Source: a phage. From it: a DNA stretch of 64,000 bases. The position numbers and the translations under genes were made by a program. The DNA lies in sequence record PX068454.1. One strand, 5' to 3'. Under the pieces are notes generated by a model, which was given only the letters and a program-made list of their open reading frames with translations, did no database searches and had not been told where the DNA came from. Positions 44,204-64,000 of the stretch are shown here, piece by piece (the first letter of the stretch is position 1; every line of letters begins with the position of its first letter).

Positions 44204-46540
44204 TTACCAAAGGTCGGTAGACATGAAGTTGATATCTTTATTGTTCTCCCACTCAAGTTTTGCATCAAATATTTTGTTAAACTCGCCCTCATCTATTGAA
44301 ATCGTGATTTTCCCATCACTGATCTCTAAAGGTAGCATTTCCATAGTTCTTAATTGAGAAGCAAAACCAGAGCCACCCGGCAACGGAAGAGTCCCGCCCG
44401 GTAAGGTGTCCAAAGGATTAACAAACCCGTTACCTCCCGATATGATATCTTTGCGAATCATATCGCTGATAGTATCCAGCTGCTGATTTCTTTCACTTAG
44501 TGGGTTGTAACGGTCATTAAATAATTCCCCGGCGCTTAGTATTGTACCGATAATGCCCAGCTTACCGAGCAGACCAACTTTGCCACCAGGTGTCTTGAGG
44601 CCACCCCCACCTTTTCCTGCCGGAGCTCCACCACCAGATCCTTCTGTAGTAGCGGCACCCGCTGCTCCAGCTGCACCCCTTAGAGAGTTAAGGAATTTAA
44701 AGGTTTTTACAAGCATGGATGCCATGACAAAACCTTTTGTTAGGGCATTGACTACCAGTATGATGGCAGCAGCAAACCCTGCCCATTTAGCATAGCTAAA
44801 GGTGTCATGAAGCTCTTCAGAATATTCCTTCGTCTTAGCTGTTATGAATCCCCATTTAATCCCCCATTCAAGGAAAAACATGCGGATCTTGACTATGGTG
44901 TTGTTTAGCTCACCAACTACCCAGTTAAGGCCTCTCACAAACCCGCTAACAAAATCACCAGAGGCATCCCACACAAATTGCAGAGTCTCACCAGTGCGGA
45001 TTAGTGTATAATAGAACTCTGTTAGTTCGTCGGACCAACGGGTGAACAGTTTCTGACGAGTCAGTTCGATGAAGGTTTTCAGTCTGTTTTCTGCCAGCAC
45101 GTTAGACTTCTGCATTCTTTCATAACCAGCTGCAGATGCCTCGTTCATGTACTTAGCCACATACTTCATGATCTTGGCTGTTTTAACCTCACCTTTCTTC
45201 ATCATGTCCATGAACTGATCCATGGAGAGTTCAGAAAGACCAAAAGCCTCTTTGGTGGCCTTGATAAAAGGTTCGTATGCACCGGGCAATGCTTCAGCAA
45301 GTTGTTGCTTCAGTTCTTCGGACATTACTTGTCCCTTGCCAAGCATCTGTTGGATAGCCATAATACCGCGCTGGTATTTTACCTCATCGGCACCATAAGC
45401 AGCAGCATACTGTGAGTATGCAGAAAACAGCTCATGCACTTCCTGATTTGTCATCTGGTTTTTGGCGTTTACCGACATCTGGGCGTAACCTTGAAGACCA
45501 GATTTGAGATCAAAACCAAGACGCATAGCCTCTTGCTGGACAAACGCAACCTCACTGTTGGCTTTGTTTGGATCTCCAGTAACAGCAGTAAGAGCAGCAC
45601 TTGCCCCCTCCATCATGTGACCGGATCTGTTAACCGCAGCAAATCCAGAAAAAGCCGTATACGCAGCTGTTGCATTAATAACAGATCTACGTAAGTCTCT
45701 CATGGCATCGCCTAGTGTAAGCGTTTGGCTGGTGGCGCTTTTAAACCCAGACTGCAGCGCTGACAGGTGGGCGTTAAAGGTTGACTTCTTCATCTCCCCG
45801 CGAGCAAACCTGGACTCTAACTCTGAGTATCCTGGCAAGCTTCCACGGAATCCGGCCCCATACTTGGCAGAAAGTCTTATCGCGGAGTTGTAGAGGTGGG
45901 TTCTCCTTGCCTCACGATCCGACATAAGCTTATTATCCATACCAGCTTTACTGTCTCTTCTTAGCTGTCTATGATAACGATTCATAGCGGCTGTCTGAGC
46001 TTTCACAAGGTTAGGGTCGGAAGCCACACCACCCATATTAGGGTTACCGGGGATATACTTGAAAGATTTGGCATTAGCCAAAACTCTTGCCTTAGGTGCC
46101 TTATAACCACCGTAAGACACTGGTGCAGATTTGGCAGCCTTTTTGGCCTCTTTAGCTTGCTGCTGGTAGAACTTACGCATCCTAGCCATTTCTGGATTTT
46201 TAGCGGTAAGATTACCTACAGCTTGTTTACGTCTCGCATTCTCCCTACGTTCTATTGCAGCCCTTACTGCAGCCTCTTTCTTGGCCTGTGCTACGCTCTC
46301 TCTGTGCAGTTTAGCATTTGCCTGAGATTGCTGTCTGGCAACCCGCTGCATTGTCTGCTGGGTTTTAACAGCTACCGCCTGCCATCTGCTCATGGGGTTG
46401 GCTGAGTTAAAATCTTCGCCCAGTTTCCTGAACTCCCTCCCAATACTGCGAATTTTCTCTACAGCTTTTTTGTAGGAGGAGTTCTCTATCTCAAAGCCAA
46501 TCTTGTTGACTGTTGTGGCAACTATTTTGTTTGTAGCCAT
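44204..46540 (-). CDS. tail tape measure protein
   Basis: 778 aa, A/Q/K/R-rich helical, Gly-rich C-terminal segment, downstream of chaperone pair. Confidence 0.7.
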   Translation of the reverse strand: MATNKIVATTVNKIGFEIENSSYKKAVEKIRSIGREFRKLGEDFNSANPMSRWQAVAVKTQQTMQRVARQQSQANAKLHRESVAQAKKEAAVRAAIERRENARRKQAVGNLTAKNPEMARMRKFYQQQAKEAKKAAKSAPVSYGGYKAPKARVLANAKSFKYIPGNPNMGGVASDPNLVKAQTAAMNRYHRQLRRDSKAGMDNKLMSDREARRTHLYNSAIRLSAKYGAGFRGSLPGYSELESRFARGEMKKSTFNAHLSALQSGFKSATSQTLTLGDAMRDLRRSVINATAAYTAFSGFAAVNRSGHMMEGASAALTAVTGDPNKANSEVAFVQQEAMRLGFDLKSGLQGYAQMSVNAKNQMTNQEVHELFSAYSQYAAAYGADEVKYQRGIMAIQQMLGKGQVMSEELKQQLAEALPGAYEPFIKATKEAFGLSELSMDQFMDMMKKGEVKTAKIMKYVAKYMNEASAAGYERMQKSNVLAENRLKTFIELTRQKLFTRWSDELTEFYYTLIRTGETLQFVWDASGDFVSGFVRGLNWVVGELNNTIVKIRMFFLEWGIKWGFITAKTKEYSEELHDTFSYAKWAGFAAAIILVVNALTKGFVMASMLVKTFKFLNSLRGAAGAAGAATTEGSGGGAPAGKGGGGLKTPGGKVGLLGKLGIIGTILSAGELFNDRYNPLSERNQQLDTISDMIRKDIISGGNGFVNPLDTLPGGTLPLPGGSGFASQLRTMEMLPLEISDGKITISIDEGEFNKIFDAKLEWENNKDINFMSTDLW

Positions 46541-57107: not shown

Positions 57108-58655
57108 TTAGATAAAACGCTTGAACATAGAAGGTGATGAGATTGATGGAATCACACAAGGCAGCGCTACCTCCTCTTTCTCCAGGAAATTAATCGCAGA
57201 AGCTACACAGTCGGCCCAGTCGTCTTTTCTGTTAAATGTTGATCTTTCCCCGTTGAACTTTTCAAGTTCAGTTAGAAATGCTTCCAGAGTGTCAGGATGG
57301 AAACTGGATTTTACAATCCTCACCATTCCTTGTTGGGCAAGATTGGCAAAGGGTGAGAACCTTGTCAGTTTAGATTTGTTGGAAGGCATTGGATCTTCTT
57401 CAACCCTGAACCCTTCGGCGAGCAAGGATCTGGACGAGGTTAAGAACTCGCTCTTACCTGCCTGACCGGGGTCCACAGAAAATACGATTATGCAATCATC
57501 TCCATCAAACTGCGCCTGTTTCCTGATGATCACATCTCGTTCCCCAGCCTTTTTACAGAACTTTCCTTCCAGACCTGTGGAATACCTACCGTCATCCACG
57601 TTCTCAGGACAATAATCCCCGGACAGGTAATAAAAGCCGTCGCTATCTTTACTTACCTTAACACTGGCGGTAAAGTCAGGAAATTTATTACCGGAAGTTC
57701 TCTCGGTTCCTGCTTTATCCCATGCCCTGCAAGATACTGATCCAAGAGGTACTCTATCGGCATCACGAAGGAAAGATCTTTGGAAATAGTTTGCACCTTC
57801 AGGTTTGGCAAACCAGTTGCCATGAAGAAGCTGGGCTTTTTCAAGCTCGGGTAGACCTTCAAGGAAAGCAAGGTATTCTGGGTTATCCCTCAAGCATACA
57901 GGATTATCGAAAATTGTTGCGCCTATAAACGAGAATGACAACGGTCTTGGCTTGATTTCCACACCCAGTCCATTGACCGTGGTGTATTTCTCTATCAACT
58001 CTTCTTTAGAGTCTCCCCAGATAAATTCACCGTCGCGTCGGATAAAATATCTTTTCTTACCACATTTCTCCGGATCTGGATACCCTTCATCGTCCAACCA
58101 CCACCTAACCAGTTTGGCAAGCATGTGTTCTGAGTCGGGGTTACAGCTGATAACCATTCTTGACGGATATTTTGACTGAGATCGCAGACGCGACATCAAA
58201 TAGTCTATCTGCTCCCATTCGAACTGTGTTCCCTCATCGAAGCAAACCATGGTATACTCAAGCCCTTGATGGTTGAGCTTATCTTGGACATATTCCATGT
58301 GACAGTATTTTACAACAGCGCCTTTTTTGCTCCTGTCCCACTTACCGGTGCTCGGATCAAACCGTGGAAAAATAAATTTATGATCCTTCTCTCTGAATTT
58401 TGGTTTGATGTTCTCAGGGAGATCGCTGTAGATAGCCACTGCTTTAGGCCATAGGCCTCCTTCACCCTCCAGCTGCGGGGTTGTTCTTCGGAACATAACC
58501 ACAGAGCTGTGCGGGTCATCAATAATTTTAAGCGGCATCAGCTGCAGGAGGAACGACTTACCTGATCCCGCTGCACCACCAATGACAAGAATGTCTGCAT
58601 CGTTTTCAAGGATCATCTTCTGCTTTTCAGAACACGGTCCGTAAATCTTAGACAT
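57108..58655 (-). CDS. terminase large subunit
   Basis: Walker A GGAAGSGKS, Walker B MVCFDE, C-terminal nuclease-like IVFSVDPG; 515 aa. Confidence 0.85.
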   Translation of the reverse strand: MSKIYGPCSEKQKMILENDADILVIGGAAGSGKSFLLQLMPLKIIDDPHSSVVMFRRTTPQLEGEGGLWPKAVAIYSDLPENIKPKFREKDHKFIFPRFDPSTGKWDRSKKGAVVKYCHMEYVQDKLNHQGLEYTMVCFDEGTQFEWEQIDYLMSRLRSQSKYPSRMVISCNPDSEHMLAKLVRWWLDDEGYPDPEKCGKKRYFIRRDGEFIWGDSKEELIEKYTTVNGLGVEIKPRPLSFSFIGATIFDNPVCLRDNPEYLAFLEGLPELEKAQLLHGNWFAKPEGANYFQRSFLRDADRVPLGSVSCRAWDKAGTERTSGNKFPDFTASVKVSKDSDGFYYLSGDYCPENVDDGRYSTGLEGKFCKKAGERDVIIRKQAQFDGDDCIIVFSVDPGQAGKSEFLTSSRSLLAEGFRVEEDPMPSNKSKLTRFSPFANLAQQGMVRIVKSSFHPDTLEAFLTELEKFNGERSTFNRKDDWADCVASAINFLEKEEVALPCVIPSISSPSMFKRFI

Positions 58656-58942
58656 TAACCTCTCTCCTTTGGAAACAGTGTTCTAATATAGTCTTGCAAA
58701 ATGATCAATTTAGCCCTATCATTACTGCAAGACAGGTTATTATCCCTCATAATGCCAGAATTCACCGCATCAGGCGCACCTTTCTTTAAAGGTATAGCTT
58801 TAGCAGGAGGCTTCATAGCACCTTCGGGCGGTTTAACAATCAATCTTCCCACATCCGGAGGATCAATCTTATATTCTTTTTCGACACTTGTCGCACATCC
58901 GCACAGCAGCAAGCAAGTAACTAACAATACGGCGGCTCTCAT
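58655..58942 (-). CDS. o-spanin (outer-membrane lipoprotein, Rz1-like)
   Basis: Lipobox-like LLLCGC, proline-rich mature region, C-terminus KERG like lambda Rz1 SERG; TAATG overlap with terminase start. Confidence 0.7.
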   Translation of the reverse strand: MRAAVLLVTCLLLCGCATSVEKEYKIDPPDVGRLIVKPPEGAMKPPAKAIPLKKGAPDAVNSGIMRDNNLSCSNDRAKLIILQDYIRTLFPKERG

Positions 58943-59337
58943 CTACCCTCCTGATTAATGCTCTCGTTATAAATATCTATAAGCTGGTCAGGTAGTGTTG
59001 ACTTCTTACCCTCAGGCGACTGAAGGTAGATAATCTGCTTTTCTTTACCTGCCATCTTAGCTGCCTCCAGCTTATCCTGTAAGTCAGAAAGGGATTTTTC
59101 AAGGTTTTTCACCTCCTCGGCATGTCCCATTTTAATCCTGTCGGCTCGCTTTTGTTGCTGGTCAAGGATCTGCTCCCACTTCAACTCTGTTGCTGTTACA
59201 CCTTCCTGATAAGCAGCGTTAAGCTTAGAGTTAAACCAATACACGGCCCCCAGGTATGCTGTGCCTAGAGCAGCTGCAAAAACTAAACCTTTTATGATCC
59301 CTCTATACCTACTCAGCCATGTTAAAAATGAAATCAT
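58939..59337 (-). CDS. i-spanin (inner-membrane, Rz-like)
   Basis: N-terminal TM helix GLVFAAALGTAYLGAVYWF then coiled coil; ATGA overlap with o-spanin. Confidence 0.65.
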   Translation of the reverse strand: MISFLTWLSRYRGIIKGLVFAAALGTAYLGAVYWFNSKLNAAYQEGVTATELKWEQILDQQQKRADRIKMGHAEEVKNLEKSLSDLQDKLEAAKMAGKEKQIIYLQSPEGKKSTLPDQLIDIYNESINQEGR

Positions 59338-59350
59338 TTTAAGGCTCCAG

Positions 59351-59390
59351 AAACGAAAAAACCCCGCAGCTATACAGCTAACGGGGCGGG
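59351..59390 (-). terminator. rho-independent terminator
   Basis: CCCCG...CGGGG hairpin with inner AGCT palindrome, then TTTTTTCGTTT on minus strand. Confidence 0.65.
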
Positions 59391-59442
59391 TTAAAATTGA
59401 GTAACCTAAATAGATCGAAACTAACTAAAAGGAGACTAATAC

Positions 59443-59712
59443 TTATCGCGGCACTCGGTGGATGATTCTAACAGTAACTGCATTTTCATTCATCAAGTAT
59501 GCATCTACATCTCTGTAAATATAAAACTTCTGCTCACTATCGACAACACAAGCTACCGCCCCTTCAGAGTTGTCTTCAAAAAAGACCACCACTGCATCGC
59601 AGCTGAGTTCATGATATGACTCTCGAAGATTTACAGCCAGAGGATTGAAATCGTCACGAAAATCTACAGTATGGGTTGGATTTACACGCTCTACAATTTT
59701 AAGTGTATACAT
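59443..59712 (-). CDS. hypothetical protein co-transcribed with tRNA cluster
   Basis: 89-aa ORF, SD AAGGAA. Confidence 0.5.
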   Translation of the reverse strand: MYTLKIVERVNPTHTVDFRDDFNPLAVNLRESYHELSCDAVVVFFEDNSEGAVACVVDSEQKFYIYRDVDAYLMNENAVTVRIIHRVPR

Positions 59713-59758
59713 TTTAAAGGTTCCTTTTGTGTGTATATGTTTAAAGTATAACTAAAGG

Positions 59759-59835
59759 TGGTCTCCACGGAGTGATTCGAACACTCGACCTCCTGATCCC
59801 AAATCAGGCGCTCTACCAAGCTGAGCTACGCGGAG
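59759..59835 (-). tRNA. tRNA-Pro (anticodon UGG)
   Basis: Manual cloverleaf: 7-bp acceptor with one G-U, T-arm GAGTG/TTCGAAT/CACTC, anticodon loop UUUGGGA, encoded CCA. Confidence 0.7.
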
Positions 59836-59846
59836 TATTTATAATT

Positions 59847-59921
59847 TGGTGGCCCTGGGTGGAATTGAACCACCGTCTGGCGATTATGAGTCGCTTGCTT
59901 GAACCTTCCAGCTACAGGGCC
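59847..59921 (-). tRNA. tRNA-Met or tRNA-Ile2 (anticodon CAU)
   Basis: T-arm GGTGG/TTCAATT/CCACC, anticodon loop CUCAUAA, encoded CCA. Confidence 0.65.
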
Positions 59922-59922
59922 A

Positions 59923-59998
59923 TGGTGCTGATGGCAGGACTTGAACCTGCAACCTATTGATTACAAATCAATTGCACTGCCAATTGTGCTACATCAGC
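59923..59998 (-). tRNA. tRNA-Thr (anticodon UGU)
   Basis: T-arm GCAGG/TTCAAGT/CCTGC, anticodon stem ATTGA/TCAAT, loop UUUGUAA, encoded CCA. Confidence 0.7.
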
Positions 59999-60002
59999 AA
60001 AA

Positions 60003-60102
60003 AGGTGCTAGGTGGTGGAATCGAACCACCTATGTATTCAACGACTACCTCGTCTATTTTCAGGATTAAAAATCCTCGCCCTTGCCAAAGGGCTTACCTA
60101 GC
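60003..60102 (-). tRNA. atypical tRNA-like gene (about 100 nt; UUU in anticodon-loop position; about 31-nt variable region; no encoded CCA)
   Basis: Perfect 7-bp acceptor GCTAGGT/ACCTAGC, D-arm GCCC/GGGC, T-arm GGTGG/TTCGATT/CCACC, only 4-bp anticodon stem, extra hairpin GACGA-GGTAG-TCGTT. Confidence 0.4.
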
Positions 60103-60200
60103 GCAATATGTTGACCATGTGGCTAGTCGGCGATGACGACTGTAACATTTGGTAATCCGGTTCTGCTTCCGGCTTTCGCTTAATTACATAGTCAACAATA

Positions 60201-60291
60201 TGGAGGAGGGTAATGGAATCGAACCATCATCGAGTCATCCTCAACGGGACGGTTTTCAAGACCGCTTGAGCACCATTGCTCCCTACCCTCC
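60201..60291 (-). tRNA. tRNA-Ser (anticodon UGA), class II
   Basis: Anticodon arm GCGGT/CUUGAAA/ACCGT, long variable arm, T-loop TTCGATT, encoded CCA; 91 nt. Confidence 0.75.
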
Positions 60292-60405
60292 TTTATAAAC
60301 AATACTGATAATGACACTGATTTTCGAGCAGTTAGTGACTAGTATAAACGACGATAAATATCAATGCCATTATCTGTATGATTTATGCATTTAAAAATAT
60401 AAATT

Positions 60406-60492
60406 TGGTGGGGAGTGGTGGAGTCGAACCACCCGAGTCGCAATGACAATAGATTTACAGTCTACACCGCTACCTCTACGGGATAACTCCCC
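60406..60492 (-). tRNA. tRNA-Tyr (anticodon GUA), class II
   Basis: Anticodon arm GTAGA/CUGUAAA/TCTAT, long variable arm, T-arm GGTGG/TTCGACT/CCACC, encoded CCA; 87 nt. Confidence 0.75.
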
Positions 60493-60496
60493 AATT

Positions 60497-60571
60497 TGGC
60501 ACCCCGTACTGGACTCGAACCAGTGTCAACGGCTTAGAAGGCCGCTGCTTTATCCACTAAGCTAACAGGGC
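60497..60571 (-). tRNA. tRNA-Arg (anticodon UCU)
   Basis: T-arm ACTGG/TTCGAGT/CCAGT, anticodon loop CUUCUAA, acceptor with two G-U pairs, encoded CCA. Confidence 0.65.
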
Positions 60572-60629
60572 ACTGGGTGGCTTTCTTTTACACCTGAGCC
60601 GCCAGAAAAGGTGGGAGACCATGTTTACA

Positions 60630-60658
60630 ATATTACATTGTTAAGCAAAGTTTGTCAA
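60630..60658 (-). promoter_or_regulatory. sigma70-like promoter for tRNA cluster: TTGACA - 17 nt - TAATAT
   Basis: Read on minus strand about 50 nt upstream of tRNA-Arg 5' end. Confidence 0.6.
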
Positions 60659-60667
60659 GAAAATATT

Positions 60668-61006
60668 TTAACTATTGCCAACAGGCTGTATCTCTGTGGT
60701 AAATGGCATAAAAGGTGCTGGTTTTTCAGCCTCTTCTACTACCACCTCTTCCTCTTCACCAAACATCTCATCATATTCTTCCTGCATTCGGTCTGCCTTA
60801 TCAAGGACATACTCTGCAATGCTTTGACGAATATTTTGCTTGGTTTTCGGATCCAACATCAGCTCTCTTAAAACTTTGTGAGCTTCTGGAACCATCGCTA
60901 TAAAAGATTCCTTCATATCAAGAATGTTCTTCTCTAGCTGAATGGCGTTGGACTCCTCTTTCAGAGGTCTGCCTCTACGGCGACGCTTTTTAGTTGTATC
61001 CGCCAT
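60668..61006 (-). CDS. small DNA-binding-like protein (Arg/Lys-rich N-terminus, acidic C-terminus)
   Basis: Start set at ATG 61006 (SD GGAGGA), not track start 61063; N-terminal KKRRRRGRP. Confidence 0.55.
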   Translation of the reverse strand: MADTTKKRRRRGRPLKEESNAIQLEKNILDMKESFIAMVPEAHKVLRELMLDPKTKQNIRQSIAEYVLDKADRMQEEYDEMFGEEEEVVVEEAEKPAPFMPFTTEIQPVGNS

Positions 61007-61021
61007 GTTTCCTCCATTATC

Positions 61022-61063
61022 ACGTGATAGGTGGATTTTATCACGGCAAATACTGATTGTCAA
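61022..61063 (-). promoter_or_regulatory. sigma70-like promoter TTGACA - 17 nt - TAAAAT with overlapping inverted repeat (operator-like)
   Basis: -35 at 61058-61063, -10 at 61035-61040 (minus strand); palindrome CGTGATA...TATCACG (61022-61046) overlaps -10 and start site. Confidence 0.55.
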
Positions 61064-61090
61064 GTTCGCCGCAGGGTGGTATTCCCTGCG

Positions 61091-61351
61091 ACTTGCCTAG
61101 CGTCCTAGACCAACAAGACCCAACAAGTGGGTTACCAGATACCCATTACCGCGCTCTGGCTCGACCTTATTACAGGTTGGCTGGGGTCACATCGTCATGT
61201 GCTGGCTGCCCCTACCATTTTAAGTGTGGTGCACTATCAAGCCCTCTAAGGGGAACTCAGACTTCTCCGAACCCTGTTTCAAAGCATCCGGAGATAAAGC
61301 CATCAAACTCATCTTTAAATTGGATATTCATCATGATACACGAAAACAACC
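61091..61351. other. GC-rich structured intergenic element A (candidate small RNA)
   Basis: About 260 bp with no ORF of 60 aa or more, locally GC-rich in an AT-rich genome, several stem-forming segments; adjacent 7-bp-stem hairpin at 61070-61090. Confidence 0.25.
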
Positions 61352-61594
61352 TCATTGTAAAGCACAAATAAATAAAACATACTTAATTTGTTTGTTATCG
61401 GGCTCAGGGTAGAAGTAGAAGATCTTGCTATCACCAATCTGAACACCACCATCCCAACAACATAAACCATAACCCGTATTCATACAAGCTAAGTCGTTGG
61501 CAAAATCTATTGCATCATCTAGTGCACGAAATTCACCTTCATCTTCTAAATAATCCTCATTCATGGAACGGAAAACGAGCTTAACCTTAAACAT
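61352..61594 (-). CDS. hypothetical protein
   Basis: 80-aa ORF. Confidence 0.45.
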   Translation of the reverse strand: MFKVKLVFRSMNEDYLEDEGEFRALDDAIDFANDLACMNTGYGLCCWDGGVQIGDSKIFYFYPEPDNKQIKYVLFICALQ

Positions 61595-63507: not shown

Positions 63508-64000
63508 TTACTCCCCGCTGTCAATAGCAAGACTCATTGCAATACGGTATGCCTCTTCTAATGGTAAGAGTCTCCCCCACACATCCCAACCGACATCAAA
63601 CTGCCTGCCAAACAACTGCTGTGTGGTTCCGTGAGCATGACCGAACAGTTGGACTGATCCGTGAGGCTTTCTGTTCCACTTTGCAAACTGGTAATGGCTC
63701 ATACAGATCAAATTCTTGTTGTGGCGAAGCTCGTAATAATCTACAACCTCATGACCGAACTCTTTCATAATTCTGACAGTCGTCCTTGTGTCATGGTTAC
63801 CACGAACAAGAATAATATGTCCGTTCAACATATTTAGAACATCTGGAAGCAATTTGTTGATATTCTTATCATTAGTGCACGCAATATCCCCCAAGTGAAA
63901 CACAGTGTCTGCAGGTGACACAACAGAGTTCCACTTGGTGATGATTCCCGCATTCATACTGTCAAGATTGTGATCATACTGAGATCTGTGTTTTTGACAT
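63508..64000 (-). CDS. metallophosphoesterase (calcineurin-like), 5' end beyond window
   Basis: FHLGDIA and VRGNHD motifs; reading frame stays open upstream of the track start 63957 to the window edge. Confidence 0.6.
   Translation of the reverse strand, partial: CQKHRSQYDHNLDSMNAGIITKWNSVVSPADTVFHLGDIACTNDKNINKLLPDVLNMLNGHIILVRGNHDTRTTVRIMKEFGHEVVDYYELRHNKNLICMSHYQFAKWNRKPHGSVQLFGHAHGTTQQLFGRQFDVGWDVWGRLLPLEEAYRIAMSLAIDSGE

What the first reader, a model, noticed from the sequence alone, without database searches (positions are those of the whole stretch)
60003..60200. Atypical 100-nt tRNA-like gene and a 98-bp hairpin-containing spacer inside the tRNA cluster
Between canonical tRNA-Thr and tRNA-Ser lies a sequence with a perfect 7-bp acceptor stem, normal D-arm and canonical T-arm, but only a 4-bp anticodon stem, UUU in the anticodon position, a roughly 31-nt variable region with an extra hairpin, and no encoded CCA. 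That is too long for a type I tRNA and has the wrong anticodon for a class II tRNA. It could be a non-canonical decoder, a tRNA-derived regulatory RNA, a decoy for tRNA-targeting host nucleases, or a decaying pseudogene. The following 98 bp has stable hairpins but no tRNA features.
Basis: seen in the sequence. Interest (0 to 1): 0.5.

Follow-up and report, generated by a model that had tools for sequence, protein, structure and literature searches.

The report
Conserved non-decoding tRNA-like phage RNA
Inside the tRNA gene cluster of an rV5-like coliphage sits a tRNA-shaped RNA gene that is kept intact across a whole phage subfamily but almost certainly cannot read codons. The "spacer" next to it is a second conserved structured RNA element, also present in phages lambda and P7. 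Neither element has been described, and both are cheap to test experimentally.

Summary
Window 60006-60102 (- strand) folds as a tRNA with a 31-nt variable region, and 60103-60200 is a 98-nt structured spacer.

The window is a Vequintavirus (rV5/FV3-like, 98% identity). The tRNA-like gene belongs to a discrete family:
- One copy per genome in Vequintavirus, Avunavirus, Seunavirus and Mydovirus (about 185 phage records). Nothing was found elsewhere, including 5,426 E. coli genomes.
- In 20 distinct sequences, 99.8% of stem positions pair. Eleven of 22 pairs show compensatory changes, including the tertiary G19:C56<->U19:A56 elbow pair. It is therefore not a decaying pseudogene.
- Covariation shows a 5-bp "anticodon" stem with a 5-6-nt loop of variable sequence. 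The UUU reading is specific to this genus, so decoding is unlikely.
- The variable region has invariant flanks (CCUGAAAA...AAUACAUAGG) around a free-sequence hairpin. Most genera encode U73-CCA.

My best reading is a processed, L-shaped tRNA mimic that binds a tRNA-recognising protein. The partner is possibly a host anticodon nuclease. The phage carries a kinase/phosphoesterase/Rnl1 RNA-repair kit upstream. The mechanism is inferred, not shown.

The spacer travels with tRNA-Ser(UGA). Its 68-nt core is 87-90% identical to lambda 44866-44934 and to P7, and each version is closed by a helix of different sequence.

The parts
60006..60102 (-). tRNA-like RNA gene, 97 nt up to discriminator A73 (60006). 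It is followed by CC (60005-60004) and a U run (60003-59999).
   Evidence: ARAGORN gives 'tRNA-???'. Rfam tRNA scores 37.1 bits. Fold z=-4.1. The family covariance model R1 scores 107.8 bits, against <=32 bits for all ordinary tRNAs.
60096..60102 (-). Acceptor stem, 5' strand GCUAGGU. It pairs with 60007-60013 (ACCUAGC).
   Evidence: Seven pairs, 100% paired in 20 sequences, four of them with compensatory changes.
60078..60093 (-). D arm: stem GCCC/GGGC with loop UUUGGCAA. A8 and U14 are swapped relative to the usual U8/A14.
   Evidence: Four pairs, three with compensatory changes. D-loop G19 covaries with T-loop C56 (G:C in 12 sequences, U:A in 8).
60062..60076 (-). Anticodon-like arm: 5-bp stem AGGAU/AUCCU with a 5-nt loop UUUUA. 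The alternative reading is 4 bp plus a 7-nt loop UUUUUAA with 'UUU'.
   Evidence: The innermost pair covaries U-A <-> C-G and the next pair A-U <-> U-A. Loops are 5-6 nt and variable in all genera.
60031..60061 (-). Expanded variable domain. It has a 5' flank GAAAAUA (60061-60055), a hairpin GACGA-GGUAG-UCGUU (60054-60040) and a 3' flank GAAUACAUA (60039-60031).
   Evidence: CCUGAAAA and AAUACAUAGG are invariant in 20 distinct sequences. The hairpin has at least five unrelated sequences, all folding at the same place.
60014..60030 (-). T arm GGUGG-UUCGAUU-CCACC.
   Evidence: Canonical T loop. Five pairs, 100% paired.
60103..60200 (-). 98-nt structured trailer of tRNA-Ser. It has a closing helix (60197-60186 with 60120-60109), hairpin P2 (60172-60157) and hairpin P3 (60141-60125). 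The conserved core is 60185-60118.
   Evidence: Fold. The core is 87-90% identical to lambda 44866-44934 and P7 72367-72434. In four versions the closing helix is built from different sequences. P3 shows a U-A <-> G-C compensatory change.
60201..60291 (-). tRNA-Ser(UGA). Together with the trailer it forms a cassette shared with phage P7.
   Evidence: ARAGORN. Colinear alignment with the P7 tRNA-Ser plus trailer, 85% mean column identity. ARAGORN finds the P7 tRNA-Ser, which is not annotated there.
59759..60571 (-). Whole tRNA operon: Arg(UCU), Tyr, 114-nt hairpin spacer, Ser, trailer, tRNA-like, Thr, Met/Ile(CAU), Pro.
   Evidence: Annotation of close relatives.
60630..60658 (-). Sigma-70-like promoter match TTGACA-17-TAATAT, about 60 nt upstream of tRNA-Arg. 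It is a candidate operon promoter.
   Evidence: Consensus scan only.
63508..63957 (-). Metallophosphoesterase gene. It is part of an RNA heal-and-seal cluster whose polynucleotide kinase and Rnl1-type RNA ligase lie just beyond the window end.
   Evidence: PHROG and Pfam hits. Annotation of the 98%-identical phage Bas59 and Pfam PF09511 / AAA_33 / Metallophos.

Best explanation
**What it is (well supported).** Window 60006-60102 (-) is one member of an undescribed family of tRNA-shaped non-coding RNAs, present once per genome in most Vequintavirinae. It keeps the acceptor stem, the D/T elbow and, in most genera, an encoded U73-CCA end. Its 'anticodon' arm is contracted to 5 bp plus a 5-6-nt loop of non-conserved sequence. 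Its variable region is expanded into a domain with invariant single-stranded flanks around a hairpin of free sequence.

**How it most likely works (inferred).**
1. It is transcribed with the neighbouring tRNAs.
2. It is cut out by RNase P and by 3' trimming with CCA repair, like its neighbours.
3. It folds into an L shape that cannot decode.
4. It acts in trans as a tRNA mimic that binds a tRNA-recognising protein through its tRNA body and its special variable/anticodon-stem junction.

The most plausible partner is a host tRNA-targeting defence nuclease, for which the RNA would be an uncleavable pseudo-substrate or decoy. In this E. coli-infecting genus the loop and its closing pairs (GA-UUUUUAA-UC) copy the anticodon loop of E. 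coli tRNA-Lys (GA-CUUUUAA-UC). tRNA-Lys is the target of PrrC and PARIS.

**The adjacent 98 nt.** This is a separate conserved structured element that moves with tRNA-Ser(UGA). It most likely acts in cis, as a processing or insulating structure in polycistronic tRNA transcripts.
For: **A discrete, conserved family**
- About 183-190 phage records, all Vequintavirinae, against about 197 records with TerL >=60% identical.
- Exact-pattern scans of viral, metagenome and genome collections found only Vequintavirinae-type members, plus one divergent metagenomic member, L316.
- Covariance model R1 separates members (95-123 bits) from all ordinary tRNAs (<=32 bits). There is one hit per genome.

**Purifying selection on the structure**
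- 99.8% of 439 cells pair, versus 32-43% when partners are slid by 1-3 columns.
- 11 of 22 pairs show double changes. 0 of 500 shuffles reach the observed covariation score.
- The tertiary pair G19:C56 <-> U19:A56 covaries.

**Not a decoder**
- The innermost anticodon-stem pair covaries, leaving loops of 5-6 nt with nine different sequences.
- Rfam's tRNA model reports only the Vequintavirus copy. The Av-05, GAP31, KB57, EspYZU15, DP and L316 copies were not reported at E<=0.01. ARAGORN left the copies in the seven Avunavirus, Seunavirus, Mydovirus and metagenomic loci scanned uncalled.

**A conserved specialised domain**
- CCUGAAAA and AAUACAUAGG are invariant, while the enclosed hairpin changes sequence completely yet still folds.

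**Context of tRNA damage and repair**
- A polynucleotide kinase, a metallophosphoesterase and an Rnl1-family ligase lie 3-4.5 kb upstream.
- PARIS and other systems cleave tRNA-Lys, and phage tRNAs counter them (PMC11464382, PMC10264068, PMC11555353). That T4 Pnkp and Rnl1 repair PrrC-cut tRNA-Lys is from my own knowledge.

**The spacer**.
Against: - There are no expression, processing, aminoacylation or binding data. Every step of the mechanism is inference.
- The resemblance to the tRNA-Lys loop is a post-hoc observation on an A/U-rich 11-mer and is confined to one genus. Other genera carry CAUCCA-type loops with no obvious target.
- The conserved variable-domain flanks are unexplained by a simple decoy model.
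- At least one Vequintavirinae genus member (Certrevirus CB7) lacks the RNA at the syntenic locus, so it is dispensable for that lineage.
- The RNA-repair genes are widespread in related myoviruses irrespective of this RNA.
- The Rfam tRNA score of the window copy is above the gathering threshold, and some annotators call it tRNA-Lys.
Confidence: 0.45

Rival explanations
1. In Vequintavirus the gene is a real, unusual tRNA-Lys(UUU). It would have a 4-bp anticodon stem, a 7-nt loop UUUUUAA, A37 and A73, be charged by LysRS, and replace host tRNA-Lys when that is cut by PrrC or PARIS. The odd stem and large variable arm would make it nuclease-proof.
For: - Rfam tRNA scores 37.1 bits, above the gathering threshold of 29.
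- It is annotated tRNA-Lys (AAA) in BASEL and other records.
- U33, UUU, A37 and the A73 discriminator match what I recall as the E. coli LysRS identity set (my knowledge). A73 is found only in this genus.
- There is precedent: the T5 tRNA-Lys neutralises PARIS (PMC11464382).
- The RNA-repair kit nearby implies exposure to tRNA-Lys nucleases.
Against: - The pair that must open to give a 7-nt loop covaries as a Watson-Crick pair across the family.
- This reading leaves a 4-bp stem, or no nucleotide 26.
- The closest sister genus has UUAUA with U73 in an otherwise near-identical RNA. That switch would be lethal for a lysine-charged decoder.
- Orthologues in other genera have 5-6-nt loops without U33.
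- ARAGORN cannot assign an anticodon.
- The invariant variable-domain flanks have no role in this model.
Confidence: 0.12
2. The RNA is aminoacylated through acceptor-stem and discriminator identity. G1:C72, C2:G71, U73 and NCC-type loops in most genera resemble glycine identity. It would then donate the amino acid to a non-ribosomal reaction, like the non-proteinogenic tRNA-Gly of staphylococci.
For: - An encoded U73-CCA end occurs in 13 of 20 distinct sequences, and G1:C72 and C2:G71 are nearly invariant.
- Loops CUUCCA, CAUCCA, CAGCCA and CCACCA keep N-C-C-A.
- The intact elbow and T arm are what charging and CCA-adding enzymes need.
Against: - Vequintavirus and Avunavirus have lost both U73/CCA and the NCC loop while keeping everything else, so glycine identity cannot be the conserved function.
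- No isotype ancestry is detectable: 64-74% identity to many tRNAs.
- No candidate transferase was identified near the locus.
Confidence: 0.08
3. It has no trans function. It would be a cis-acting punctuation element that supplies RNase P and 3'-processing sites and a stable fold. That would organise maturation or stability of the polycistronic tRNA transcript, and possibly partial termination at the CCUUUUU that follows it.
For: - It always lies inside the tRNA operon, 2 nt after the CCA of the preceding tRNA in Avunavirus, Seunavirus and Mydovirus.
- In Vequintavirus its T-arm/acceptor hairpin is followed by a U run that scores as terminator-like.
- The neighbouring spacer elements also look like processing structures.
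Against: - Any ordinary tRNA would provide the same processing sites.
- This does not explain the invariant 8- and 10-nt flanks, the invariant three pairs of the anticodon stem, or retention of a contracted anticodon arm over four genera.
Confidence: 0.15
4. It is a decaying tRNA pseudogene with a chance insertion in the variable loop, and the spacer is meaningless filler.
For: - It is annotated tRNA-Pseudo, tRNA-OTHER or not at all in many records.
- It is absent from Certrevirus CB7.
Against: - 99.8% pairing with 11 compensatory pairs, and a covarying tertiary pair.
- Four genera with about 67-69% TerL identity (Seunavirus and Mydovirus) still keep it.
- The spacer core is 87-90% identical in unrelated temperate phages, with covarying closing helices.
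Confidence: 0.03

Closest known systems
Phage T4 species 1 RNA (rnaC), the stable RNA of unknown function encoded in the T4 tRNA cluster
   Same: - It is encoded in a lytic coliphage tRNA operon next to canonical tRNAs.
- It has a canonical T arm (CCGGG-UUCGAAU-CCCGG) closed by an acceptor-like stem.
- An extra hairpin sits just before the T arm and is preceded by AAAAAUA. The family here has GAAAAUA or GAAAAAUA.
- It is non-decoding, and its function has been unknown for decades (my knowledge).
   Different: - The T4 RNA is 139 nt, and a long hairpin replaces the D and anticodon arms.
- There is no detectable sequence or covariance-model homology: R1 does not hit rnaC.
- Its 3' flank is UAA rather than GAAUACAUA.
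Canonical class II (long-variable-arm) bacterial and phage tRNAs (Ser, Leu, Tyr)
   Same: 7-bp acceptor stem, 4-bp D stem, G18G19/T-loop elbow, 5-bp T stem, and a hairpin in the variable region.
   Different: - The loop is 5-6 nt instead of 7.
- There is no conserved anticodon, and it is not a Ser, Leu or Tyr anticodon.
- The variable hairpin is flanked by 7 and 9 unpaired, invariant nucleotides instead of 1-2.
- A8/U14 are swapped.
Defence-evading phage tRNAs (T5 tRNA-Lys versus PARIS; T5 tRNA-Tyr versus retron effectors; anticodon-loop variants, van den Berg et al. 2023)
   Same: These are phage-encoded tRNA-cluster genes with altered anticodon stem-loops in phages exposed to tRNA-cleaving immunity (PMC11464382, PMC11555353, PMC10264068). 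The copy here resembles the tRNA-Lys anticodon loop.
   Different: Those are fully functional decoders with 7-nt loops that replace the cleaved host tRNA. This RNA appears unable to decode, so it would have to work by binding, not by replacement.
Bacterial tRNA mimics: the tmRNA tRNA-like domain and YrlA (Y RNA-like)
   Same: They use acceptor, T-arm and D-loop mimicry with a replaced anticodon region to engage tRNA-binding proteins.
   Different: Rfam models for tmRNA and YrlA do not match this locus. The only such hits are chance-level and elsewhere in the cluster. This RNA keeps a complete cloverleaf.
For the 98-nt spacer: 3' external or internal transcribed spacers of tRNA operons (such as E. 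coli 3'ETS-leuZ), and the prophage anti-sRNAs AgvB/AsxR encoded downstream of PR'
   Same: It lies between tRNAs in a polycistronic transcript. The lambda copy lies in the same 'moron' region downstream of Q/PR' where AgvB-type sRNAs occur (PMC4104026).
   Different: There is no Rfam match. It has no terminator and lacks the 51-60-nt architecture of AgvB/AsxR. No sponge target has been identified.

Membership tests
Canonical decoding tRNA | 7-bp acceptor stem, D arm and T arm forming the G18G19 / psi55-C56 elbow | tested here: met
   All pairs are present and covarying, and G19:C56 covaries with U19:A56.
Canonical decoding tRNA | 5-bp anticodon stem closing a 7-nt loop with U33 and a purine at position 37 | tested here: not met
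   The arm is 5 bp plus a 5-nt loop here and 5-6 nt in relatives. The 7-nt reading needs a 4-bp stem and opening of a covarying Watson-Crick pair. Many relatives lack U33.
Canonical decoding tRNA | Anticodon conserved among orthologues | tested here: not met
   Nine different loop sequences occur in 20 orthologues: UUU here and UAU in the sister genus.
Canonical decoding tRNA | Score above the Rfam RF00005 gathering threshold | tested here: inconclusive
   The window copy scores 37.1 bits (threshold 29). Orthologues in Av-05, GAP31, KB57, EspYZU15, DP and L316 are not reported at E<=0.01.
Canonical decoding tRNA | Aminoacylation and ribosomal use | not testable with these tools
   Needs acid-gel or periodate assays and tRNA-seq of polysomes.
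tRNA pseudogene | Relaxed constraint: broken pairs, and lineage-specific presence | tested here: not met
   99.8% of cells pair, 11 of 22 pairs are compensatory, and it is present in four genera.
T4 species-1-type stable tRNA-like RNA | Encoded within a phage tRNA operon, with a T arm plus acceptor-like stem, and non-decoding | tested here: met
T4 species-1-type stable tRNA-like RNA | Sequence or structure homology to T4 rnaC | tested here: not met
   Model R1 gives no hit on rnaC (L154 2909-3047). It hits only T4 tRNA-Thr and tRNA-Leu at 23-24 bits.
tmRNA / YrlA / tRNA-Sec / small ribozymes (Rfam) | Match to the family covariance model | tested here: not met
   cmscan at E<=10 over 58500-61500 gives only RF00005 on this locus. 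One orthologue gives a sub-threshold tRNA-Sec hit, 31.4 bits against a threshold of 47.
Anti-defence tRNA decoy or pseudo-substrate (functional class, not a sequence family) | Binds and inhibits a tRNA-targeting nuclease, and its loss sensitises the phage | not testable with these tools
   Only circumstantial evidence: a loop resembling tRNA-Lys, and the nearby Pnk/phosphoesterase/Rnl1 genes.
AgvB/AsxR prophage anti-sRNAs (for the 98-nt spacer) | 51-60-nt sRNA with a conserved 3' terminator region, and an Rfam or sequence match | tested here: not met
   No Rfam hit over the element in the window, lambda or P7. The architecture described in PMC4104026 differs.

The most novel reading that the evidence does not exclude
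The family may be a dedicated RNA inhibitor of tRNA-targeting immunity. It would be an uncleavable pseudo-substrate whose contracted loop copies positions 33-37 of the host tRNA under attack. In E. coli phages that is tRNA-Lys UUUUA. In Salmonella, Klebsiella and Cronobacter phages it is a tRNA-Gly-like (C)UUCCA or CAUCCA. The invariant variable domain would clamp or block the nuclease. This would be a counter-defence by RNA mimicry, distinct from the known 'replacement tRNA' strategy and complementary to the phage's own Pnk/phosphoesterase/Rnl1 repair kit.
Probability: 0.15. Interest if true: 0.85.

Novelty: new variant of a known kind. Interest (0 to 1): 0.55.

Why it matters
Phage tRNA clusters are now read mainly as a response to tRNA-cleaving immunity, but only replacement decoders have been shown to act. 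A tRNA-shaped RNA that cannot decode, yet is preserved with compensatory changes across a subfamily of therapeutic-candidate phages (rV5, PVP-SE1 and Klebsiella Mydovirus types), points to a second, binding-based use of the tRNA fold.

It also gives a tractable modern counterpart to the still-unexplained T4 species 1 RNA. On the practical side, the gene is annotated inconsistently across GenBank: as tRNA-Lys, tRNA-OTHER, a pseudogene, '???', a hypothetical protein, or nothing. A covariance model fixes that.

The spacer result shows that a piece of the lambda late leader, present in about 8% of complete E. coli genomes, is a conserved structured RNA element of unknown function that moves with tRNA-Ser between lytic and temperate phages.

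Tried and rejected
1. **A standard tRNA in another register.** ARAGORN in default, relaxed (-ps) and intron (-i) modes gives only a 99-nt '?(atcc)' with an all-A/U stem and 8-nt loop, or a 'Gln(ttg)' with a 5-nt intron. Rejected.
2. **Pseudogene.** Rejected by covariation.
3. **Known RNA families** (tmRNA, YrlA, tRNA-Sec, ribozymes, AgvB). No Rfam match at E<=10 on the locus, or at E<=1 on the lambda and P7 copies of the spacer. The CUGA...GAA resemblance to a hammerhead core fails at the essential G8 (read from the sequence).
4. **Host origin.** There is no blastn match in 5,426 E. coli genomes, even at E<=10.
5. **Isotype ancestry.** With the variable insert trimmed, identity to Thr, Cys, Arg, Gly and Lys tRNAs is 64-74%, which is uninformative.
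6. **Antisense target of the invariant flank.** The complement CCUAUGUAUUC is not enriched in the window: 16 matches with up to 2 mismatches against 16.9 expected.
7. **Homology to T4 rnaC by covariance model.** None.
8. **A peptide in the spacer.** A short ORF starts at the conserved ATG, but a 1-nt indel between the window and lambda/P7 shifts the frame (alignments). Not coding.
9. **A promoter inside the variable domain.** The spacing between the conserved blocks varies from 15 to 24 nt, which is incompatible with a promoter.
10. **Literature.** There is no paper on a tRNA-like RNA in Vequintavirinae, and no hit for the spacer sequence. The rV5 genome paper lists six tRNAs and does not mention this gene (PMC3606486).
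11. **A tRNA-related enzyme immediately adjacent.** The immediate neighbours are spanins, TerL, portal and small unknown ORFs. The repair genes are 3-4.5 kb away.
Full report
**Observation**

On the minus strand, ARAGORN finds seven genes at 59759-60571:
- Arg(tct)
- Tyr(gta)
- Ser(tga) at 60291-60201
- a 99-nt 'tRNA-???' at 60102-60004
- Thr(tgt) at 59998-59923
- Met(cat)
- Pro(tgg)

Rfam's tRNA model aligns 60102-60006 over its full length (37.1 bits, gathering score 29, E=1.6e-5). It needs a 26-nt insertion in the variable region, one deleted anticodon-stem position and one non-standard pair. The RNA folds as a cloverleaf plus an extra hairpin at -36.8 kcal/mol, z=-4.1, with no shuffle as stable.

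ARAGORN in relaxed and intron modes yields only other non-standard solutions. The 98 nt at 60200-60103 lie between tRNA-Ser and the tRNA-like gene. They form a 12-bp closing helix with two inner hairpins, but by energy alone the fold is only marginal (z=-2.0).

**Source of the window**

The cluster is 98% identical to Escherichia phages FV3, rV5 and the BASEL Vequintavirus isolates. In those records the tRNA-like gene is labelled tRNA-Lys, tRNA-OTHER, tRNA-Pseudo or '???(atcc)'. Sometimes it is covered by a spurious CDS or left blank. The rV5 genome paper lists six tRNAs and does not mention it (PMC3606486).

**A discrete family**

- BLAST with the window copy and with the GAP31 copy finds 183-190 phage records. 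All are Vequintavirinae: Vequintavirus, Avunavirus, Seunavirus and Mydovirus.
- About 197 records carry a TerL at least 60% identical to the window's.
- Exact-pattern scans of IMG/VR and of JGI metagenomes returned only such phages, chance coding hits, and one divergent metagenomic member, L316.
- There is no match in 5,426 complete E. coli genomes.
- Certrevirus CB7 lacks it at the syntenic tRNA locus.
- A covariance model built from 20 distinct sequences scores members at 95-123 bits and every ordinary tRNA at 32 bits or less. There is one member per genome.
- Rfam's tRNA model did not report the copies in Av-05, GAP31, KB57, EspYZU15, DP or L316 at E<=0.01. ARAGORN did not call them in the seven non-Vequintavirus loci scanned. 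This explains why the gene is largely unannotated there.

**Structure from comparison (alignments A2 and A4)**

- Across 22 proposed pairs and 20 sequences, 99.8% of cells form standard pairs. This falls to 32-43% when the 3' partners are slid by 1-3 columns.
- Eleven pairs show changes on both sides. No shuffle out of 500 reaches the observed covariation score.
- D-loop position 19 and T-loop position 56 switch together from G:C to U:A. The tRNA elbow is therefore under selection.
- The two innermost pairs of the 'anticodon' stem switch together: A-U/U-A in Vequintavirus and Avunavirus, U-A/C-G elsewhere.
- The arm is therefore a normal 5-bp stem closing only 5 or 6 nucleotides. The loops seen are UUUUA, UUAUA, CAUCA, CAUCCA, CUUCCA, CAGCCA, CCACCA, CCUCAA and AUCAA.
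The sister genus has UAU in an otherwise near-identical RNA.
- In contrast, the three outer anticodon-stem pairs plus CCUGAAAA, and AAUACAUAGG before the T stem, are invariant.
- The hairpin between those flanks has at least five unrelated sequences and 5-8 bp, yet always folds.
- Thirteen of the 20 distinct sequences encode U73-CCA. In Avunavirus, Seunavirus and Mydovirus the gene starts 2 nt after the CCA of the preceding tRNA.

These are the marks of a functional, processed RNA whose function does not lie in an anticodon.

**The spacer**

- Its 68-nt core (60185-60118) is 87-90% identical to lambda 44866-44934, which lies between orf-64 and S and has no annotation. It is equally similar to P7 72367-72434.
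- In P7 the core directly follows an unannotated tRNA-Ser(UGA) that ARAGORN detects. The tRNA-Ser plus trailer is colinear with the window at about 85% column identity, with compensatory acceptor-stem changes.
- In the window, lambda, P7 and a lambdoid variant (L202), the core is closed by helices of entirely different sequence:
  - UGUUGACUAUGU/ACAUGGUCAACA
  - GUUGUGCUG/CAGCACAAC
  - AAGAGUAUUUGGCU/AGCCAAGUGCUCUU
  - GUUGUGGUG/CACCACA
- All four fold the same way. Hairpin P3 shows a U-A <-> G-C exchange.
- The element occurs in 426 of 5,426 E. coli genomes, in lambda-like prophages and P1/P7-like plasmids, and is never annotated.
- It has no Rfam match.
- It is not an AgvB/AsxR-type anti-sRNA.
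- It is not coding, because an indel shifts the only short ORF.
- Lambda's hairpin just after tR' is also homologous to the P7 spacer just after tRNA-Thr. The lambda late leader therefore looks like the spacer scaffold of a tRNA operon without its tRNAs.

**Genomic context**

- A sigma-70-like match (TTGACA-17-TAATAT) lies about 60 nt upstream of tRNA-Arg.
- Downstream of the operon come a small ORF, the spanins, TerL and portal.
- In the 98%-identical, well-annotated phage Bas59, 3-4.5 kb upstream and in the same direction lie a polynucleotide kinase (AAA_33), a metallophosphoesterase (window 63508-63957) and an HTH protein. An Rnl1-family RNA ligase (PF09511) and a Sir2 protein are encoded divergently next to them.
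- This is a heal-and-seal kit of the kind T4 uses to repair tRNA-Lys cut by PrrC (my knowledge). Homologous ligases are widespread in related myoviruses.

**Mechanism**

Shown: a conserved, covarying, tRNA-shaped RNA gene with a contracted, variable 'anticodon' loop and a conserved expanded variable domain.

Inferred:
- co-transcription with the tRNAs
- RNase P and 3' processing
- an L-shaped product that cannot decode
- action by binding a tRNA-recognising protein

I favour a pseudo-substrate or decoy for tRNA-targeting immunity, for three reasons:
1. Such systems are common in enterobacteria, and phage tRNA genes are known to counter them (PMC11464382, PMC11555353, PMC10264068, PMC12916289).
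2. The Vequintavirus loop with its closing pairs, GA-UUUUUAA-UC, differs by one base from E. coli tRNA-Lys, GA-CUUUUAA-UC (sequence given in PMC11464382).
3. The phage invests in tRNA repair.

This remains circumstantial. The loop resemblance is post hoc, other genera have different loops, and the invariant flanks are unexplained.

Rivals, with my estimates:
- a cis-acting processing element only: 0.15
- a genuine nuclease-proof tRNA-Lys in this genus: 0.12
- an aminoacylated non-ribosomal donor: 0.08
- a pseudogene: 0.03

**Comparison with what is known**

The nearest analogue is T4 species 1 RNA (rnaC). It is also a stable tRNA-like RNA in a tRNA operon, with a T arm and an extra hairpin preceded by AAAAAUA, but it shows no model-detectable homology. 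The RNA here resembles class II tRNAs in outline but fails the defining anticodon-loop, anticodon-conservation and variable-arm features. It differs from the known defence-evading phage tRNAs, which are real decoders. I therefore class it as a new variant of a known kind (phage tRNA-like stable RNAs), not as a tRNA and not as something categorically new.

**Limits**

- There are no expression or biochemical data.
- Only part of the CB7 genome was searched.
- Covariation counts come from related sequences. The slid-partner controls keep that relatedness, and the observed structure still far exceeds them.
- The E-values of model R1 are rough.

Noticed in passing
window 60103-60200; lambda NC_001416 44866-44934 (L003 701-769); P7 NC_050152 72367-72434 (L004 1501-1568): The 'spacer' core is a conserved, unannotated structured element. 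It is shared by lytic rV5-like phages, lambda-type prophages and P1/P7-type plasmids, in 426 of 5,426 E. coli genomes. Its closing helix covaries, and it has no Rfam family.
   Followed up: partly
L003 612-705 (lambda 44777-44870) versus L004 940-1022 (P7, just after tRNA-Thr): The long hairpin that follows lambda tR' has stem strands homologous to the P7 spacer after tRNA-Thr, while the loops differ. The lambda late leader looks like the inter-tRNA spacers of a tRNA operon that has lost its tRNAs. Several CACAAC/GUUGUG-closed units occur in P7 between tRNA-Thr and tRNA-Ser.
   Followed up: partly
window 60292-60405 (-): The 114-nt spacer between tRNA-Tyr and tRNA-Ser forms a long, near-perfect hairpin (-26.4 kcal/mol, z=-4.7, 0 of 200 shuffles). 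It is found only in Vequintavirus (114 records). It may be an RNase III-type processing site.
   Followed up: partly
L008 1351-1425, L150 322-398, L006 1421-1493, L153 310-385, L007 2760-2829: In Seunavirus and Mydovirus, the tRNA just upstream of the tRNA-like gene is a GAU 'Ile'-type with aberrant anticodon loops. These loops lack U33 and a purine at position 37, or are 6 or 8 nt long. The gene is annotated variously as Arg, Ser or Ile. A further 'tRNA-???(gt)' also exists. Degenerate anticodon loops seem to be a recurrent theme in these clusters.
   Followed up: partly
window 63508-63957 (-) and beyond the window end (Bas59 MZ501061 125348-127356): A metallophosphoesterase, a polynucleotide kinase and an Rnl1-family RNA ligase form an RNA heal-and-seal cluster 3-4.5 kb upstream of the tRNA operon, with a Sir2 protein beside them.
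   Followed up: partly
window 59847-59921 (-): The CAU-anticodon tRNA is called tRNA-Met by ARAGORN and by most records, but tRNA-Ile (AUA, implying lysidine) in the BASEL annotation. Its identity is unresolved.
   Followed up: no
L155, L170, L173 and other genome-contig hits: Exact matches to the lambda element occur in assemblies of unrelated bacteria (Pseudomonas, Shewanella, Oceanobacillus, Bradyrhizobium and others). They sit on ~48.4-kb or short low-coverage contigs. This is almost certainly lambda control-DNA contamination of those assemblies.
   Followed up: no
GenBank MG0656xx 'Campylobacter phage' records: About 18-24 records labelled Campylobacter phages are 96-100% identical to E. 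coli rV5-like phages over the tRNA cluster and TerL. The host labels are probably wrong or reflect contaminants.
   Followed up: no
L002 606-947 (phage YP-6; also VB-EcoM-WM): Two relatives carry a ~345-bp insertion with a 342-nt ORF at the Pro end of the cluster, and no tRNA-Pro is annotated there. In some relatives TerL is split into 2-3 pieces by homing-endonuclease or intron insertions.
   Followed up: no
window 60009-60032 (-) followed by 59999-60005: The T-arm/acceptor hairpin of the tRNA-like gene followed by CCUUUUU scores as an intrinsic-terminator-like site. The U run is present only in Vequintavirus.
   Followed up: no
L004 1587-1702 (P7): There is a sub-threshold Rfam hit to the sRNA STnc100 (43 bits against a threshold of 47) immediately downstream of the P7 copy of the trailer element.
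   Followed up: no
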